DNA from: Candidatus Zixiibacteriota bacterium
Lineage (GTDB): Bacteria > Zixibacteria > MSB-5A5 > GN15 > JAAZOE01
Assembly (NCBI GenBank): GCA_043819555.1
Contig: JBDREQ010000031.1
Span: 31,233-95,232, forward strand
Direction: 5' to 3'
Length of the DNA stretch: 64,000 bases
Each line of letters starts with the position of its first letter. The first letter of the stretch is position 1. The notes under the pieces were generated by a model. The model saw only the letters and a list, made by a program, of their open reading frames with translations. It was not told the origin of the DNA and did no database searches. Shown piece by piece: positions 5,048 through 64,000 of the stretch. The position numbers and the translations under genes were made by a program.

Positions 5048-6721
<1,674 letters not shown>

Positions 6722-6743
6722 AATCCCTCAGTAATATATCCTC

Positions 6744-6776
6744 AAAAAGCCGTCGCAGGTTGTGGCGGCTTTTTTG
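6744..6776 (+). terminator. Intrinsic terminator after pyrG
   Basis: AAAAAGCCGTCGC-AGGTT-GTGGCGGCTTTTTT hairpin with T tail. Confidence 0.8.
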
Positions 6777-6820
6777 TAATCTTATGGATCAAAATCCCTG
6801 CGGTTTTGGCAAATACAATA

Positions 6821-6844
6821 CGACAACCCGAGGGTTGTCGCTAC
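6821..6844 (-). repeat. GTAG-family REP
   Basis: Minus strand reads GTAG-CGACAACCC-TC-GGGTTGTCG: perfect palindrome preceded by GTAG. Confidence 0.7.
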
Positions 6845-6859
6845 ACAGTGATCCAACGT

Positions 6860-6923
6860 CGTCATTGCGAACGAGAAGCAGAAAGTAGATCGCCACGTCG
6901 GCCTTCGGCCTCCTCGCGATGAC
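6860..6923. repeat. CGTC-family palindromic repeat
   Basis: CGTCATTGCGA...TCGCGATGAC terminal inverted repeat with internal GGCCTTCGGCC hairpin, typical of CGTC repeats. Confidence 0.7.
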
Positions 6924-7087
6924 TGAGTTTTAATACTATTCTCCAAAAGTTATCCACATTATAGTTCTTAAAATTCCTTGTAACGCAATATTTTCCTATA
7001 GCTTATAGCAAAATGGCTTTGCTTTGTCGTTTTTGGTTATCCGCTACAAGTTTGATGGTGATTATGAAAGGCATTCATAAATTTCCC

Positions 7088-7160
7088 GTAGGGGTCGCTC
7101 GCGAGCGGCGCGAAAATGATATTATTCCAACAGCGGGCTCGTCGCGACGAGCACCAATAG
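7088..7160. repeat. Inverted pair of decayed GTAG REPs (REPIN-like)
   Basis: GTAGGGGTCGCTCGCGAGCGGCGC and GGGCTCGTCGCGACGAGCACC. Confidence 0.6.
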
Positions 7161-7252
7161 ATACCAGTCGGTTTGAAATATACTTCATCATACAAAACGG
7201 GATGATTTCGGAATAAGCGCCAAATCTATTGGAAAAATGTTGATGCTCTCAT

Positions 7253-7302
7253 GCGGGAACCCATCTCAAAAAACGCTGCGCTTATTTTTAAGTTGGGGCA
7301 CC
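7253..7302 (-). repeat. REP copy of the family flanking the RAYT remnant at 20.2-20.5 kb
   Basis: GCGGGAACCCATCTCAAAAAACGCTGCGCTTATTTTTAAGTTGGGGCACC aligns with the reverse complement of 20234-20284 and with 20455-20490. Confidence 0.7.
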
Positions 7303-7329
7303 GGCGGTGCAAGCAAATTGGCGGGAATC

Positions 7330-7584
7330 ACCTTGTCCGATAAGCACGAATCTTTAAAAAGACTCGAAAGGGTCCATAAATTGATTGAGGGTTTTGAAAA
7401 TCCCTATGGAATGGAATTATTAGCTACAGTGCATTGGGTGTTAAAAGATAATAAAGATGGAAAATTATCTGATGCGGAAACAGTTACTAAGGTTTTTGCG
7501 TGGAATGATCGAAAGAAGAAGATTTTCAATTCAGAGCACATAGCAATTGCAAGGAAAAGACTAATTGACGAAAAATGGATTTAG
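7330..7584 (+). pseudogene. darG: 3' fragment of a DarG-like macrodomain antitoxin
   Basis: RLERVHKLIEGFENPYGMELLATVHWV...VFAWNDRKKKIF..EHIAIARKRL matches the DarG C-terminal region. The macrodomain is absent and the first part of track ORF 7237 is REP-derived. Confidence 0.7.
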
Positions 7585-7629
7585 TAACTCCAATGTTCTC
7601 CACTACTATATAGTAGAATCCCCCCCCTC

Positions 7630-8064
7630 CTACTCCAGATTCATGCCGGGCATTTTTACGAAGCAGTTTAATACAGTTTTATTCAGTGATTTAATACTGA
7701 TATAGCCTACAGATTCGTAAAATAGTTTTTGCCTTTCATCGTCGTCCGTCAAGAGAACGTGCGAGCGGACATGTTCGAATCTTTTTAGACAACGATTAAG
7801 AAGTTCTCGGCCAATCCCACGATGCTGAAATTCCGGATCAACAAGAATGTCTTGAAGGTAGTGGATAGCGCTATCGTCAGACAGTGACCGCCCCAGTCCG
7901 ATAAGCTTATTATTGTCCGTACAAACTACAACAAAATTTGAGTTTATTATGGCCTTAATGAGATTTTCCGGGTCTTTTGTATATGTGGTCCAATTAACTG
8001 AGTTGTACAGTCTAAGGATTTCGTCTTTTGAGATATTCTCGATGTCCTCGGTATATGTTAGCAT
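7630..8064 (-). CDS. GNAT family N-acetyltransferase
   Basis: LQDILVDPEFQHRGIGRELL acetyl-CoA motif and FYESVGY; ATG at 8064 has a GGAG Shine-Dalgarno. Confidence 0.9.
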   Translation of the reverse strand: MLTYTEDIENISKDEILRLYNSVNWTTYTKDPENLIKAIINSNFVVVCTDNNKLIGLGRSLSDDSAIHYLQDILVDPEFQHRGIGRELLNRCLKRFEHVRSHVLLTDDDERQKLFYESVGYISIKSLNKTVLNCFVKMPGMNLE

Positions 8065-8203
8065 AATTTTCTCCAGTGTTGAAACAAAACACACCCGCCC
8101 CTTCGGGGCACCGGTCCTAGATAGGCAAGGGCCTAGTGGGGGAACAAGCTGGTTGCTTTACAGAGGAACTCGGTCGGGTGGCCTGCAGCAGAGTACATAT
8201 AAT

Positions 8204-10702
8204 CTAATTCTGTGACTCTTTGACCAGATCCGAGTAGCGGGTGATAATTTTTTCGACGCTTTTTTCCGATTCGGCTTCGGCAATAATTCTAAACGCCGCC
8301 CTCATTCTGTCCGGTACAACCAAAACCGAGCCGCCATTTTCCATTACCCGGACGCCGTCAATAAGCTGTCTCTCTTTACCCTTGGTGATTGTAATTAACT
8401 GGCGCATAACCTGGCCTTTTTTACTCCACGGGCACGGTATCGAAACGGTTTTGCGGACATACGATGTAAATTGATGGCGCAGCTCTTCGATAGTCGTATT
8501 GGCGCTGGCAAGCATCTCGAGCAGAGTGATAATTGCAAACATTGCGTCGGCCCCGACCTGGAAACGCGGGAATATAAATCCGCCCAGGGTTCCGCCGACA
8601 AAATCGGCCCCGCCCCGGATGTGAGCGTTCATCATCGCCAGATGATCGTTTCTGACACGGGTCACTTCAACGCCGTATTCACGAGCCAGTTCCTCGACGC
8701 CCATCGACGCCGCTACCGGTACCGCAATGCGTCGCGATTTATTACTGCGCAGATATAAATCGGTCATAATCAAAAGAAGCAATTGCGCTCCGACTTCATT
8801 TCCATCGCCGTCGATGACTATCATCTTTTCGCCGGAAGGATTTATCATGATTCCCAAATCGGCTGCCAATGATGTTACGATTGTTGATAGCTGTTTGATT
8901 TTATCCCGCAAATCATGCGAATGGTCCGAGGCGCGCAGAGGGTTGGGGTAGGCGTTTAGGCTGAGAGCGTCTATTCCGAGAGATGAGGTGATAGCCGGAA
9001 AACATTGGCCAGCCGAACCGTATGAATAATCGATAATGATCTTGAAATCACGGTGGCGCACTGTTTCCTCGTCAATCATCCGCAAAAACGTCTCCTGATA
9101 ATTCTTGAACAATCCCTCCTGTTCTTCAAGATGACCGGTATCGGCCAGCGATGCCCTGGGGAAATCCTCATTGGTAAATGAGCGTTCCACTTTTTTGGTT
9201 TTTGAAGTTGGCAGATCGAGCCCGGAATCATCGAGGAAAATTATATCGACCACATTATAGTTGTCGGGATTGTGACGCAGATAAATCCCCGCTCCATAAT
9301 TGCCGTTTTTCAGCGTATGGCGCAGTACCGGCAACGGCAGGATATCAAGATCATCCGCATCCACGCCGGTCGCCATGAGGCCGCATAATATGGATCGCTT
9401 CAATAATCGGGTCGCGTCCGAAGCGTCGCGGCTGGCGACAATGCGCTGCTTTTTGCCCAGGGACGCGCCAAAGGCCGCACCCAATTTTACCGCCATCTCG
9501 GGAGTAATTTCGGTCAGTCCCAGACCCGAAACTTTGGAATCGGTGAATAATTCACGATTCCATTTTTCACCCCAGACAATCGAAGAAGAGACAATAGCAC
9601 CGTCATCAATAATTTTGCCCGGCCATATTTTGCAATTGGCTCTGATTGTCGCCTCAGCCCCGACCTGGCATTCATCCGAAACGACTGCCCGGTCGAGAAT
9701 CGACGCCCCGCGCCCGATCTGTACCTGTTTGGTAATAATGGCGCTTGAAATCGATACTAAGGGCCCGATCACGGTTTGCGACCAAATAGTCGTGCCGGAG
9801 ATTTTTGCCTTTTCGCCGATTGTTGTATTTGAGCCAATTATGGAATTGCCGATATGGGCGCCTTCATCAATCCTGCAATTATCTCCTATAAATACAGTTC
9901 CGGAGAAATTAACAGAATTGGCGATATCAACATTTTCACCCAGAAAGACCCGGCCTCCGTTTTTCTCAATCGCTTTGCCTGGACTCGAAATGGCGACATT
10001 CCCCTCGAGAATATCATGCTGGGCGTAAGTGTATTCATCAATATCTCCCACATCCCGCCAGTAACCCTGGGATATTTTCCCCAGTAGATTCATGTTCTTC
10101 TGGAGCATGACCGGGAAAAGATTTTGCGAAAAGTCAAAATTGGTCCGTGGCGGAATTAATTGTACCGTTTCCGGCTCAAGAATATAAATCCCGGTATTGA
10201 TTGTATCGGAAAACATCTCGCCCCATGATGGTTTTTCCAAAAAGCGGGTAATATGGTTGCTCTCGTCGGTAATAACAATACCATAGGCCAGCGGGTTTTC
10301 GAGCCGCGTCAATAGAATACTGGCATCGCCTTTATTATCCTTATGAAATTGAAAAGCCGCACTTAGATCAAAATCGGTCAGCACATCGCCCGAAATAATG
10401 AGTGTTGTCTCGTCGCAAAAATCAGCGGCATAGCGAACCGCTCCGGCGGTGCCATAATCCTGATTGGGCAACATATAATCCATTTTGACGCCAAACTTGC
10501 TGCCGTCCTGGAAATGATTCCGGATAACTTCGGATTGGAAAAATATCAATGACATGATTTCGTCAAATCCATGCTTTTTGAGCAAATTGACGACATGTTC
10601 CATCATAGGCCGATTTCCAATCGGTACCATCGGCTTGGGGATATTGATGGTAAGCGGCCTTAACCGGGTCCCAAATCCTCCGGCCATAATAATCGCTTTC
10701 AC
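8204..10702 (-). CDS. Mannose-1-phosphate guanylyltransferase fused to a degenerate phosphomannomutase-like domain
   Basis: MAGGFGTRLRPLT..PKP, EKP, hexapeptide LbH repeats, C-terminal phosphohexomutase fold. Confidence 0.9.
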   Translation of the reverse strand: MKAIIMAGGFGTRLRPLTINIPKPMVPIGNRPMMEHVVNLLKKHGFDEIMSLIFFQSEVIRNHFQDGSKFGVKMDYMLPNQDYGTAGAVRYAADFCDETTLIISGDVLTDFDLSAAFQFHKDNKGDASILLTRLENPLAYGIVITDESNHITRFLEKPSWGEMFSDTINTGIYILEPETVQLIPPRTNFDFSQNLFPVMLQKNMNLLGKISQGYWRDVGDIDEYTYAQHDILEGNVAISSPGKAIEKNGGRVFLGENVDIANSVNFSGTVFIGDNCRIDEGAHIGNSIIGSNTTIGEKAKISGTTIWSQTVIGPLVSISSAIITKQVQIGRGASILDRAVVSDECQVGAEATIRANCKIWPGKIIDDGAIVSSSIVWGEKWNRELFTDSKVSGLGLTEITPEMAVKLGAAFGASLGKKQRIVASRDASDATRLLKRSILCGLMATGVDADDLDILPLPVLRHTLKNGNYGAGIYLRHNPDNYNVVDIIFLDDSGLDLPTSKTKKVERSFTNEDFPRASLADTGHLEEQEGLFKNYQETFLRMIDEETVRHRDFKIIIDYSYGSAGQCFPAITSSLGIDALSLNAYPNPLRASDHSHDLRDKIKQLSTIVTSLAADLGIMINPSGEKMIVIDGDGNEVGAQLLLLIMTDLYLRSNKSRRIAVPVAASMGVEELAREYGVEVTRVRNDHLAMMNAHIRGGADFVGGTLGGFIFPRFQVGADAMFAIITLLEMLASANTTIEELRHQFTSYVRKTVSIPCPWSKKGQVMRQLITITKGKERQLIDGVRVMENGGSVLVVPDRMRAAFRIIAEAESEKSVEKIITRYSDLVKESQN

Positions 10703-62651: not shown

Positions 62652-62684
62652 AAAAGCCGTCTTTGATATAGAGGCGGTTTTTTA
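62652..62684. terminator. Bidirectional terminator between convergent genes
   Basis: AAAAGCCGTCT...AGAGGCGGTTTTTT. Confidence 0.7.
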
Positions 62685-63641
62685 TTCATATCGTAAAGCA
62701 ATGATAGGATCGACCCGCGAAGCCCGCCAGGCCGGATACACACCGGCTGTCATTCCGGTTCCGATTGAGACGGCCAGACCCGCAAATGTCCATATAAACG
62801 ATAAGTGATAATGCCAATCAAGCGATGCTGTAATTACCAATCCCACTAAAGCCCCGAAAAATATGCCGATAAGTCCCCCGACTCCGGTTAAAGTTCCGGC
62901 TTCGACGAGAAACTGAAACAGAATATTTTTTCGCCTCGCTCCGAGGGCTTTGCGGATGCCGATTTCGCGAGTTCTTTGAGTCACCGATATTAGCATTATA
63001 TTCAGTACCCCGATAACGCCGACTAATAGGCCAACGCAGGCGACTGCCACGGCAACCATGTGAACCGTTCCGACAATATCATTTATCATGTTTTTAAATC
63101 GTTCCTGAGTTTGGAAACCGAAATTATTTGGGTCTTCCGGCCGCAATTTGCGAACTCTTCGAAGAGCGTTTACAATCTGATCCATCGCCTCGCCAAACAT
63201 ATCTCTGGAGATAGCGCTGGCCAGTAAATAGACCTGATTTGTGTTCGGATAATATTGGTCAAAAGTAGTCATTGGGATGTAAATGAAGTCATTTTCACTG
63301 ATGCCGAAGAAATCGTCAATTTCTTCCTGGACGCCGATAACATTAAAAGCATAACCGTTAACTTTGATTTCCTTCCCAATAGCGTCTTCACGATGATCAA
63401 AAAGAGCGTCGGCAACGGCGGGACCGATAACGCATACCTTTGATGCCCGTCGCATATCATTATCGTCGATGAACCGGCCATTCGACACGTCGCGATTAGT
63501 AACAATGGCTTGTTCCGGCCAGCAACCCCGAAAATCATCAGGCGACCTGATTTCGCGGTCCATATATTTGGCGACATTGCGATAGGCTTTTTTTTCAGGC
63601 GAGACGGCTTTAATTAAGGGGCACATATCCCTGATTGCCAG
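62682..63641 (-). pseudogene. 3' part of a MacB/FtsX-type ABC permease, interrupted by an integrated element
   Basis: LAIRDMCPLIKAVSP, GRFI, VCVIG, VGVIGVLNIMLISVTQRTREIGIRKALGA, QFLVEA, PA.RAS..DPI.ALRYE; lacks the N-terminal TM1 region. Confidence 0.88.
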
Positions 63642-64000
63642 CCAAAAATCAGAACCACTCCCTTCAACAAGCAAATTGAAGGGTTTTGTGTATGTGGGAT
63701 AAAGAGTTAAATCTTTTATTGTGCAGTTCGAAAGTAATTTCCTTAACAGTTTTCCCTGTTCCTCTGTAGTTTGCCTAACATAATGCGAATAAATACCTTG
63801 AGCGAGTTCTAAAAATTCAACACCCTCTTGATAATAATCAGTATTGGCCGTTTCCAATCTCTGAATCTGTAACGAAATTGCATTCTGTTCTGTTATCCAG
63901 TTCTCGTGTTGCTTTTGCCAAAATCCAGTATTTATACGCCCTTCAATCTTATCCAAATAACAATTGTCAAGTTTTTCTTGAAGTCCAGAATGCTTACGTC
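63627..64000 (-). mobile_element. End of an integrative element: C-terminus of a large serine recombinase plus att junction
   Basis: Frame open to the window edge: LQEKLDNCYLDKIEGRI...W..EQ...LELAQ...LLSNC...YTKPFNLL...FWLAIRD. GC drops across the junction (hand counts: 31/60 at 63421-63480, 19/60 at 63661-63720). Confidence 0.75.

What the first reader, a model, noticed from the sequence alone, without database searches (positions are those of the whole stretch)
62682..64000. Serine integrase fused in frame to the ABC permease gene it interrupts
Seen: the 424-aa ORF is chimeric. About 105 AT-rich codons of coiled-coil, large-serine-recombinase-like C-terminus run with no stop through FWLAIRD into a MacB-type permease lacking roughly its first 90 residues. 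Inference: the element's att site lies inside the integrase 3' end, so the target gene supplies the integrase C-terminus, here a periplasmic domain plus three TM helices. The integrated state would break the transporter and could tether or inactivate the integrase; excision would restore the permease and give the integrase a different C-terminus. Established analogues: skin and nifD excision elements, and Mx8 whose attP lies within int. This is a candidate recombination-controlled on/off switch for a transporter.
Basis: partly seen in the sequence, partly recalled or inferred. Interest (0 to 1): 0.85.

Follow-up and report, generated by a model that had tools for sequence, protein, structure and literature searches.

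The report
Mobile element splits a transporter gene
A mobile element whose serine integrase normally inserts at the end of a glutamine tRNA gene has landed inside a transporter gene that looks a little like that tRNA, so the integrase and transporter reading frames run together; this is most likely an off-target insertion, not a genetic switch.

Summary
The chimeric ORF is real. It runs off the end of its contig (window 64000 = end of contig C31). Its first 118 codons are 55-65% identical to the C-terminal part of five full-length large serine recombinases (LSRs). The rest is residues 99-417 of a 417-aa MacB/FtsX permease. The missing permease 5' part sits at the start of another contig of the same MAG (C71). 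The two junctions share the 8-bp core CTGGCAAT, and joining them in silico gives an uninterrupted 417-aa gene.

This is a family trait. In 49 of 71 related loci the integrase frame has no stop before it enters an antisense tRNA gene. The closest relatives, including the same-genus genome, sit at tRNA-Gln.

The permease site resembles the tRNA-Gln half-site (15 of 24 bases). Best reading (0.68): an evolutionarily recent secondary-site insertion, with the in-frame fusion incidental.

The on/off-switch idea has no support. All 9 relatives' orthologs are intact, no reads could be obtained, and the integrase catalytic part and the element interior are absent from the MAG.

The scan met this integrase type before on other DNA (note e1-1312034).

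The parts
62682..63998 (-). Chimeric open frame, 438 codons, 5'-open at the contig end: integrase 3' part + core + permease 3' part
63642..64000 (-). 3' fragment of a large serine recombinase gene, equivalent to residues 388-505 of P0002 (coiled-coil and post-coiled-coil region). Its last ~25-50 bases are the P arm of attP.
   Evidence: 55-65% identity to P0002-P0006. 84% nucleotide identity to the remnant beside tRNA-Gln in same-genus G001. dN/dS 0.16-0.22 against G001 and G003. P0002 residues 203-411 align to the A118 integrase C-terminal domain structures 6dnw/4kis.
63634..63641 (-). 8-bp core CTGGCAAT, identical at both junctions and in the attP-form relic. The crossover must lie within it, most likely in its first four bases CTGG.
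   Evidence: The identity block with tRNA-Gln sites ends at ...TGGCTGG.
63618..63641 (-). Permease-side half-site (B' arm) that resembles the 3' acceptor/T-arm of tRNA-Gln read antisense: CTGG, CAGGGAT, G and CCCC in register
   Evidence: 15 of 24 identical to the genome's own tRNA-Gln. Only 582 of about 6.7 million genome positions score 15 or more. Alignment with tRNA-Gln junctions of G001, G003, L024 and L028.
62682..63633 (-). 3' part of a MacB/FtsX-type ABC permease gene (codons 102-417 plus stop). It lacks TM1 and the first ~60 residues of the periplasmic domain.
   Evidence: Pfam. 91% identical to the 417-aa ortholog P0007. dN/dS 0.041 against G001 with no stops or frameshifts.

Best explanation
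The last 1.3 kb of the window is the integrase-side junction (attR type) of an integrative element.

The element belongs to a widespread group whose large serine recombinase gene carries attP inside its own last codons. The gene has no stop of its own before the crossover point. The group normally inserts at the extreme 3' end (CCA/discriminator) of a tRNA gene; for this subgroup the target is tRNA-Gln(CTG).

In this Zixibacteria genome the element instead recombined with codons 99-101 of the last gene of a HlyD-permease-permease operon. That site shares CTGGCAAT with attP, and its downstream half resembles the tRNA-Gln acceptor/T-arm.

The insertion splits the permease into two pieces:
- A 5' piece on contig C71: 101 residues plus 8 element-encoded residues, then a stop.
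- A 3' piece that the integrase frame happens to enter in phase, which produces the chimeric ORF.

The fusion is a by-product, and the transporter subunit is inactivated. Precise excision would rebuild it.

Shown: both junctions, the core, the attP form in a relative, the empty site in relatives, and the family-wide tRNA geometry.

Inferred: that the serine recombinase (rather than a partner tyrosine recombinase) did it, that the element is still whole, and that the site was chosen through tRNA mimicry.
For: 1. Complementary halves. C71:728->427 encodes permease residues 1-101 and then leaves it; window 63641->62682 carries the rest. Both share CTGGCAAT. The in-silico join is 1254 nt = 417 aa + stop, with no gap, and 381/417 identical to P0007.

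2. Empty sites. All 9 relatives' best orthologs are open at 418-428 codons. The same-genus site reads GAAGCTCTGGCCATTCGGGAT.

3. attP. G001:C50 holds an integrase 3' remnant + CTGGCAAT + 24 further bases that match the C71 side with 2 mismatches; after that the sequences diverge.

4. Family habit. Of 71 evaluable loci out of 80 fetched, the integrase frame's first stop lies inside or beyond an antisense tRNA in 49. Fifteen more have a T-arm-like tail and 7 have other tails. In 33 of 33 loci where the T-loop was located it is read GAT-TCG-AAx in the integrase frame; 17 further loci were not scored by my pattern.

5. Nearest relatives sit at tRNA-Gln: G003 with an intact gene (P0002), G001 with a remnant, plus L023, L024 and L028.

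6. Site mimicry. 15/24 identity to the genome's own tRNA-Gln arm, in the top ~1e-4 of genome positions.

7. Both permease halves show dN/dS of 0.02-0.04 against G001, like the intact neighbour gene (0.047). The break is therefore young on the scale of that divergence.

8. A tyrosine recombinase lies within 3 kb upstream in only 6 of 55 loci, so tRNA targeting goes with the serine enzyme.
Against: - Only 118 integrase codons are visible. Residues 1-387 and the element interior are nowhere in the MAG.
- The C31 end and the C71 start have no k-mer overlap with any other contig, although many other contig ends overlap by 141 nt. Whether the element is whole or active is therefore unknown.
- In same-genus G001 both copies of this integrase are truncated remnants. 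One is cut at residue ~376, close to where this contig ends (residue 388).
- The canonical tRNA-Gln site in this genome is intact and empty, which makes use of a secondary site odd.
- The mimicry is moderate. 582 genome positions score as well or better, and the CTGG-N4-YAGGGAT-N2-G-N2-CCCC motif (2 hits) was derived post hoc.
- Eight bases of identity exceed what serine integrases need and are typical of tyrosine recombinases. The closest clade (L023-L027, L029, L031, G003) carries an HTH protein and a tyrosine recombinase just upstream of the serine recombinase.
- The DNA next to the C71 junction encodes a T9SS-tail protein of a kind common in the host chromosome.
- No read data were available to confirm coverage across either junction.
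Confidence: 0.68

Rival explanations
1. Dead relic or rearrangement. The integrase piece is a truncated remnant, as in G001. The junctions were made long ago, or by a related recombinase acting in trans on a resident att-type site (translocation or inversion). The permease is then permanently broken and nothing can excise.
For: Both G001 copies are remnants: residues 376-530 beside tRNA-Gln and 459-507 on C50. The G000 fragment differs from the G001 remnant by dS 0.85, against about 1.1-1.2 for two of the three chromosomal genes compared (permease 3' part 1.18, permease A 1.12; permease 5' part 2.81), which is compatible with vertical descent. No integrase N-terminus is in the MAG. G000 and G001 differ in gene order around tRNA-Gln. 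T9SS-tail genes like the one at C71:3-248 are common on the chromosome.
Against: Both permease halves are undecayed, with dN/dS 0.02-0.04 and no stops. The fragment itself has dN/dS 0.22. The C71 side matches the attP arm for exactly 24 bases beyond the core and then diverges, as expected of an element end rather than a conserved chromosomal locus. A missing interior is usual for mobile elements in binned assemblies.
Confidence: 0.2
2. One reading: a recombination-controlled on/off switch. The element is kept in the permease gene, and regulated excision restores the transporter, like skin, SPbeta or the nifD/fdxN elements. The membrane-protein extension tethers or silences the integrase while the element is integrated.
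For: Precise excision would restore an intact 417-aa gene. Both halves are under strong purifying selection. The integrase C-terminus does change with integration state.
Against: The interruption occurs in 0 of 9 relatives' orthologs, including the same genus. Among the 6 proteins matching the integrase fragment, only the window's own carries permease domains. The family's regular target is a tRNA end. The genome has several paralogous permease pairs. The fused product lacks TM1, so the periplasmic domain would be mis-placed. No directionality factor was identified and no read evidence for both states exists.
Confidence: 0.07
3. Same insertion, different enzyme. The tyrosine recombinase that accompanies the serine recombinase in the closest relatives catalysed the insertion, using the 8-bp identity as its overlap region. 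The serine recombinase gene merely overlaps the site.
For: An HTH protein + tyrosine recombinase + serine recombinase are in a row in L023, L024, L025, L027, L029 and G003 and, by tblastn, in L026 and L031. Identity blocks of 8 bp (permease) and 12-14 bp (tRNA-Gln) are typical of tyrosine recombinase cores.
Against: 49 of 55 loci with the same tRNA-end geometry have no tyrosine recombinase within 3 kb upstream (ORFs of 220 aa or more, E<=1e-5). L028 and L030, also Zixibacteria, lack it. The invariant reading frame ties the site to the serine recombinase gene.
Confidence: 0.12
4. Assembly chimera: the integrase piece was joined to the permease by mis-assembly.
For: The junction lies 359 bp from a contig end in a short-read MAG. 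No reads could be laid.
Against: Two independent contigs carry reciprocal junctions at the same 8 bp, and together they rebuild the gene exactly. The other arm matches a natural attP-form sequence in another genome. An 8-bp overlap cannot join de Bruijn contigs that overlap by 141 nt elsewhere in this assembly.
Confidence: 0.02

Closest known systems
Phage and ICE large serine integrases (A118/LI integrase, TP901-1, SPbeta YokA/SprA; also phiC31 and Bxb1, named from recall)
   Same: Homologs carry Resolvase + Recombinase + Zn-ribbon domains. P0002 aligns to the A118 integrase C-terminal domain (6dnw/4kis, E 2.5e-10), the TP901-1 catalytic domain and YokA. Short att sites with a small core.
   Different: At most 29% identity to any record of the phage collection and at most 32% to any plasmid record. 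attP lies inside the gene's own last codons. The usual target is a tRNA 3' end, whereas serine-integrase proviruses are reported to prefer protein-coding genes (PMC13626063, passages read).
Myxophage Mx8 intP/attP (recalled, no paper read here; search found nothing useful)
   Same: attP lies within the integrase coding region, so integration changes the integrase C-terminus. The target is a tRNA gene.
   Different: Mx8 Int is a tyrosine recombinase. Here the gene is a serine recombinase and the change affects only residues after a conserved Trp.
Gene-interrupting excision elements with serine recombinases: skin/SpoIVCA, SPbeta/SprA, Anabaena fdxN element/XisF (recalled); 'regulated gene integrity' (Mageeney 2020, seen only as a citation in PMC12884075; the paper itself is not held)
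   Same: An element with a serine recombinase splits a protein-coding gene. Precise excision would restore it.
   Different: No conservation of the insertion (0 of 9 relatives). No evidence of regulated excision. The family's usual target is a tRNA, so this copy looks off-target.
tRNA-targeting genomic islands (Islander, PMC4383910 abstract) and tycheposons (bioRxiv 10.1101/2020.12.28.424599, passages)
   Same: Islands at tRNA genes that carry defence and accessory cargo. Cargo seen in relatives includes R-M systems, AbiEi, Schlafen/AlbA_2, Rep and primase genes. In tycheposons, 27 of 937 elements carry a large serine recombinase.
   Different: Those islands are overwhelmingly driven by tyrosine integrases and regenerate a longer tRNA segment. 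Here the crossover is at the CCA/discriminator end, and the integrase reads through the tRNA antisense.

Membership tests
Large serine recombinase (LSR) | N-terminal resolvase catalytic domain with the serine nucleophile (PF00239) | not testable with these tools
   The contig ends at the equivalent of residue 388. tblastn with P0002 finds residues 1-387 nowhere in the MAG. All five full-length homologs have PF00239.
Large serine recombinase (LSR) | Recombinase domain (PF07508) and zinc ribbon (PF13408) | not testable with these tools
   Same reason as above. Both domains are present in P0002-P0006. P0002 residues 203-411 align to the A118 integrase RD/ZD structures.
Large serine recombinase (LSR) | C-terminal coiled-coil and post-coiled-coil region homologous to LSRs | tested here: met
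   118 aa, 55-65% identity, 99-100% coverage, E 2e-45 to 1.5e-33 against five LSRs.
Integrated site-specific element (attL/attR pair) | Two reciprocal junctions sharing a core, which together rebuild the uninterrupted target | tested here: met
   Core CTGGCAAT at C71:434->427 and window 63641->63634. The join gives 417 aa + stop, 381/417 identical to P0007.
Integrated site-specific element (attL/attR pair) | Uninterrupted target (attB) in relatives and contiguous attP form | tested here: met
   9 of 9 relatives' orthologs are intact. P arm-core-P' arm is contiguous in G001:C50.
Integrated site-specific element (attL/attR pair) | Both junctions physically linked by one element with a complete recombinase | not testable with these tools
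   The interior is absent from the MAG. No runs were listed. Two metagenome pattern scans gave 0 hits.
MacB/FtsX-type ABC permease | MacB periplasmic core domain + FtsX C-terminal TM bundle | tested here: met
   PF12704 4.4e-21 and PF02687 2.1e-20. 7904 homologs at E<=1e-20; orthologs are 417 aa.
MacB/FtsX-type ABC permease | Complete four-TM topology including N-terminal TM1 | tested here: not met
   The window ORF starts at profile position 60 of MacB_PCD. Residues 1-101 with TM1 are on C71.
Regulated gene-integrity switch (skin / SPbeta / fdxN type) | Interruption conserved in the lineage, with evidence of programmed excision | tested here: not met
   0 of 9 relatives are interrupted. No other integrase-permease fusion among the 6 hits. 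Excision itself could not be tested.
attP-within-int architecture (Mx8-like) | Crossover inside the integrase coding region, so the C-terminus depends on integration state | tested here: met
   Tail in attP form is ...WLAIVDYFRTAA. At tRNA-Gln it is ...WLGDRDSNPDSTVQSRMSCHWTIPQ. Here it is 320 permease residues. 49 + 15 of 71 loci run into tRNA sequence.

The most novel reading that the evidence does not exclude
The state-dependent C-terminus is functional. In this whole integrase group the residues after the conserved Trp (the Trp codon is the antisense of the tRNA's CCA) are supplied by whichever DNA lies across the crossover. The enzyme would then 'know' whether it is excised or integrated: a short element-encoded tail when excised, and a tail dominated by the invariant T-arm peptide xDSNxRP when integrated. 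The tail, which sits right after the coiled-coil that controls directionality in serine integrases, would bias integration versus excision without a separate directionality factor. In this window the 320-residue membrane-protein tail would then lock the element in place.
Probability: 0.1. Interest if true: 0.8.

Novelty: new variant of a known kind. Interest (0 to 1): 0.5.

Why it matters
Three points matter.

First, the window documents, with both junctions and a natural attP-form sequence, a group of large serine recombinases that break two textbook habits. They target tRNA 3' ends, and their attachment site lies inside their own coding sequence. The group is found in many phyla and is at most ~30% identical to any integrase in the curated phage and plasmid collections.

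Second, the off-target event is a natural experiment. Comparing the tRNA-Gln and permease sites narrows the crossover to about four bases (CTGG). It also points to the half-site bases the enzyme may read (CAGGGAT and CCCC). Both are directly testable and of use to those who mine serine integrases for genome engineering.

Third, it is a caution for annotation. The 438-codon 'fusion protein' is a junction artefact of biology, not a new domain architecture.

Tried and rejected
- Read mapping. The look-up of sequencing runs listed no run for window 62700-64000.
- Metagenome scans. Two exact-pattern scans of metagenome contigs with integrase-fragment patterns found 0 stretches.
- Element interior in the MAG. 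tblastn with P0002, with three tyrosine recombinases, three HTH proteins and one L028 ORF, and with seven G001 island proteins gave nothing except T9SS-tail paralogs. Neither the C31 end nor the C71 start overlaps another contig.
- Far ends of tRNA-integrated relatives. No repeat of 11 nt or more of the tRNA-end region lies within the up to 10 kb upstream in 11 loci, apart from two 11-nt matches that look like chance. The core pattern occurs once in G003's 16 kb.
- Dyad symmetry of the reconstructed attP and attB. The best scores (12/24 and 10/20) do not fall at the core, so this was uninformative.
- Literature. Searches found no description of serine integrases reading antisense into tRNA genes. 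This covers only the held open-access library. Mageeney 2020 is not held.
- Misassembly was considered and rejected (see rivals).
- A chromosomal target for the C71-side arm was considered. It is less likely because homology to G001 stops 24 bases past the core.

Full report
**What is at the coordinates**

The minus strand carries one open frame from the window's last bases to a stop at 62682-62684. Window position 64000 is the last base of contig C31 of a 79-contig, 3.35-Mb MAG (97% complete).

Pfam places MacB_PCD (profile positions 60-204 of 207) and FtsX on residues 120-431, and nothing at gathering score on the first ~118 residues. Those 118 residues are 55-65% identical, over 99-100% of their length, to the C-terminal parts of five 495-532-aa proteins. 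All five carry Resolvase, Recombinase and Zn-ribbon-recombinase domains. The best of them, P0002, aligns to the A118 integrase C-terminal domain structures through residue 411.

The permease part is 91% identical to a 417-aa Zixibacteria ortholog, P0007, from residue 96/99 onward.

**The other junction**

In the same-genus genome G001 the intact permease gene directly follows a paralogous permease gene. In the window's own genome that paralog lies at C71:724-1947, next to the start of contig C71.

tblastn with P0007 finds residues 1-103 at C71:728->420. Read in the permease sense, C71 gives ...GAAGCT-CTGGCAAT-AGTAGAC... and stops eight codons later. The window gives ...GATTTTTGG-CTGGCAAT-CAGGGAT....

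The 8-bp core is at C71:434->427 and at window 63641->63634. Joining the two halves at the core, from files inside a script, gives 1254 nt. That is 417 codons plus stop, with no internal stop and no gap, 381/417 identical to P0007.

The operon on C71 reads HlyD-family adaptor, permease A, then the interrupted permease B.

All nine relatives' best orthologs are uninterrupted, with open frames of 418-428 codons. The G001 site reads GAAGCTCTGGCCATTCGGGAT.

Reciprocal junctions on two contigs that rebuild the gene exactly rule out a chimera, since contigs in this assembly overlap by 141 nt.

**The attachment site is inside the integrase gene**

Same-genus G001 carries, on contig C50, a 73-codon integrase 3' remnant followed by CTGGCAAT and then AGTGGACTATTTTAGAACTGCTGC. 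This matches the C71 side of the junction for the core plus 24 bases with two mismatches. After that the two sequences are unrelated.

This is the un-recombined arrangement: integrase end, core, then the element's other arm. It shows two things:
- The C71-side sequence is an element arm of half-site length.
- In the excised state the integrase ends ...DFWLAIVDYFRTAA.

**A family habit**

A pattern-and-tblastn scan of one genome per species returned 575 relatives, of which 80 loci were kept. Of these, 71 have at least 120 bp downstream of the match.

- In 49 of the 71 the first in-frame stop of the integrase lies inside or beyond a tRNA gene on the opposite strand. The kinds are Arg 15, Asn 11, Gln 7, Asp 4, His 4, Pro 4, Glu 2, Ser 2, Ala 1, from the slightly different count of 50.
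- In 15 more, no tRNA is called but the tail has the T-arm peptide.
- Seven have other tails.
- In 33 of 33 loci where my pattern located the T-loop it is read GAT-TCG-AAx in the integrase frame. A Trp codon lies 12 bases upstream, which is the antisense of the tRNA's CCA. Seventeen loci with ACTCGAA-type loops were not scored by the pattern.

The gene thus never has its own stop before the crossover, and the target always supplies the last residues. The hosts span Zixibacteria, Ignavibacteria, Acidobacteriota, Planctomycetota, Nitrospirales, Proteobacteria and others.

The curated phage and plasmid collections hold nothing closer than 29% and 32% identity.

The scan met this kind of integrase before, at tRNA-Asp in a Patescibacteria genome (note e1-1312034). 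My 80-locus survey agrees with that note.

**Normal target of this subgroup**

The closest relatives read into tRNA-Gln(CTG): P0002 in G003 (intact gene at L126:11881-13473), L023, L024, L028, and G001.

In G001 only residues ~376-530 remain beside tRNA-Gln, 84% identical in DNA to the window fragment. G001's contigs C47 and C50 overlap by 126 nt. The tRNA-side remnant and the attP-form relic therefore bound a ~9-kb island.

The window genome's own tRNA-Gln (C20:55707-55780) is intact, with no integrase beside it. Its 3' end and trailer share GATTTTTGGCTGG with the integrase end.

The identity block with tRNA-Gln ends at ...CTGG, and the block with the permease is CTGGCAAT. If one position of attP is cut in both reactions, it lies in CTGG, the discriminator and first acceptor bases. 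This is inference.

**Why the permease?**

Downstream of CTGG, the permease reads CAATCAGGGATATGTGCCCC where tRNA-Gln reads GGGA(C/T)AGGGATTCGAACCCC.

Against the genome's own tRNA-Gln this is 15 of 24 identities in fixed register. Only 582 of ~6.7 million genome positions reach 15. The motif CTGG-N4-YAGGGAT-N2-G-N2-CCCC occurs twice in the genome, at exactly these two places, but I derived it from them. The upstream halves are unrelated, as are the natural tRNA trailers among relatives.

I read this as secondary-site capture through resemblance to the conserved (tRNA) half-site. The resemblance is moderate, so this step remains an inference.

**Age and state**

Against G001, dN/dS values are as follows:

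| Gene piece | dN/dS | dS |
|---|---|---|
| Permease 3' part | 0.041 | 1.18 |
| Permease 5' part | 0.018 | 2.81 |
| Intact neighbouring permease A | 0.047 | 1.12 |

There is no decay, so the break is young relative to the split of the two species, or else is maintained.

The integrase fragment shows dN/dS 0.22 against G001 (dS 0.85) and 0.16 against G003.

What cannot be seen is the rest of the element. The integrase N-terminus, the tyrosine recombinase and HTH gene that precede the serine recombinase in the closest clade, and G001's island genes are all absent from the MAG. The two contig ends have no graph neighbour in the bin. No sequencing run was listed, and two metagenome scans were empty.

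**Which enzyme**

A tyrosine recombinase lies within 3 kb upstream in 6 of 55 evaluable loci. These are L023, L024, L025, L027 and L029, plus an unrelated one in L068. It is also present in G003 and, by tblastn, in L026 and L031.

The tRNA-end geometry and the fixed frame hold in the other 49 loci, so I assign the reaction to the serine recombinase. The 8-bp identity and the partner gene in the nearest clade keep the tyrosine enzyme as a 0.12 rival.

**The switch idea**

Excision would indeed restore the gene and swap the integrase tail. Against a switch:
- The insertion is unique to this genome (0 of 9 relatives).
- It is the only integrase-permease fusion among the 6 hits.
- It lies in a family that otherwise uses tRNAs.
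- It sits in one of several paralogous permease pairs.
- The fused product lacks TM1.
- In-phase entry is a one-in-three event.

I give the switch 0.07.

**Verdict**

The window shows an ordinary gene disruption, made by an out-of-the-ordinary and poorly described kind of serine integrase.

Noticed in passing
L125 (G001:C47:1-3716) and L127 (G001:C50:1-5431): The same-genus genome has a ~9-kb island at tRNA-Gln bounded by two integrase 3' remnants in direct orientation. One is joined to the tRNA; the other is in attP form (integrase end-core-other arm). This looks like successive insertions at one site. The island ORFs (256, 182, 244, 380 and 344 aa) have no Pfam match. Contigs C47 and C50 overlap by 126 nt.
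   Followed up: partly
L023:5836-9286, L024:5660-8996, L027:7291-10564, L126:10061-13473 (also L025, L029): In the Zixibacteria/Ignavibacteria clade the serine recombinase is preceded by a conserved pair: a ~150-200-aa HTH protein with Cys-rich C-terminus and a ~365-aa tyrosine recombinase. The role of this three-gene module is unknown.
   Followed up: partly
L023-L102: In 33 of 33 scored loci the integrase frame reads the tRNA T-loop as Asp-Ser-Asn, with a conserved Trp codon that is the antisense of CCA. The integrated-state tail is therefore similar whatever tRNA is used.
   Followed up: partly
L063, L065, L068, L078, L087, L093, L101: Seven relatives have integrase tails with no tRNA-like sequence (for example L065 ...GDWLAALDDFRNYLIREAA). 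They may be further non-tRNA insertions or attP-form copies.
   Followed up: no
G008:C158:35-108, G015:C4:3-62 and C7:1-55, G018:C4:6-78 and C29:3362-3411: In several related genomes tRNA-Gln lies at, or is cut by, a contig end. This would be expected if this site is a hot spot for variable islands.
   Followed up: no
G000:C20:55700-64053 and 82986-97515, compared with G001:C47 and C50: Gene order around tRNA-Gln differs between the two species of the genus. The block that is 27 kb to the right of tRNA-Gln in G000 abuts the tRNA-Gln island in G001, in reverse orientation. This suggests a rearrangement with an end at the att region.
   Followed up: no
G000:C7:2931-3755 and 6588-8261; G000:C67:56275-57828: The MAG has three other serine recombinase genes (275-aa open frame, 558 aa and 517 aa), about 24-28% identical to P0002. 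Two lie 3 kb apart on C7.
   Followed up: no
L059:7003-9279 and L064:7002-8330: Two Acidobacteriota loci have MacB/FtsX permease ORFs within 3 kb upstream of the serine recombinase. This is probably chance, given how common these genes are.
   Followed up: no
phage collection records MT836653.1 (9264 bp) and MT837677.1 (6409 bp): The best matches in the phage collection are two small unannotated 'Bacteriophage sp.' records, with the recombinase near one end (27-29% identity).
   Followed up: no
C71:3-248 (+), L003: The gene next to the element's far arm ends in a T9SS sorting domain (FlgD_ig / Por_Secre_tail). Dozens of paralogous tails occur in the genome, so it cannot tell element from chromosome.
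   Followed up: partly
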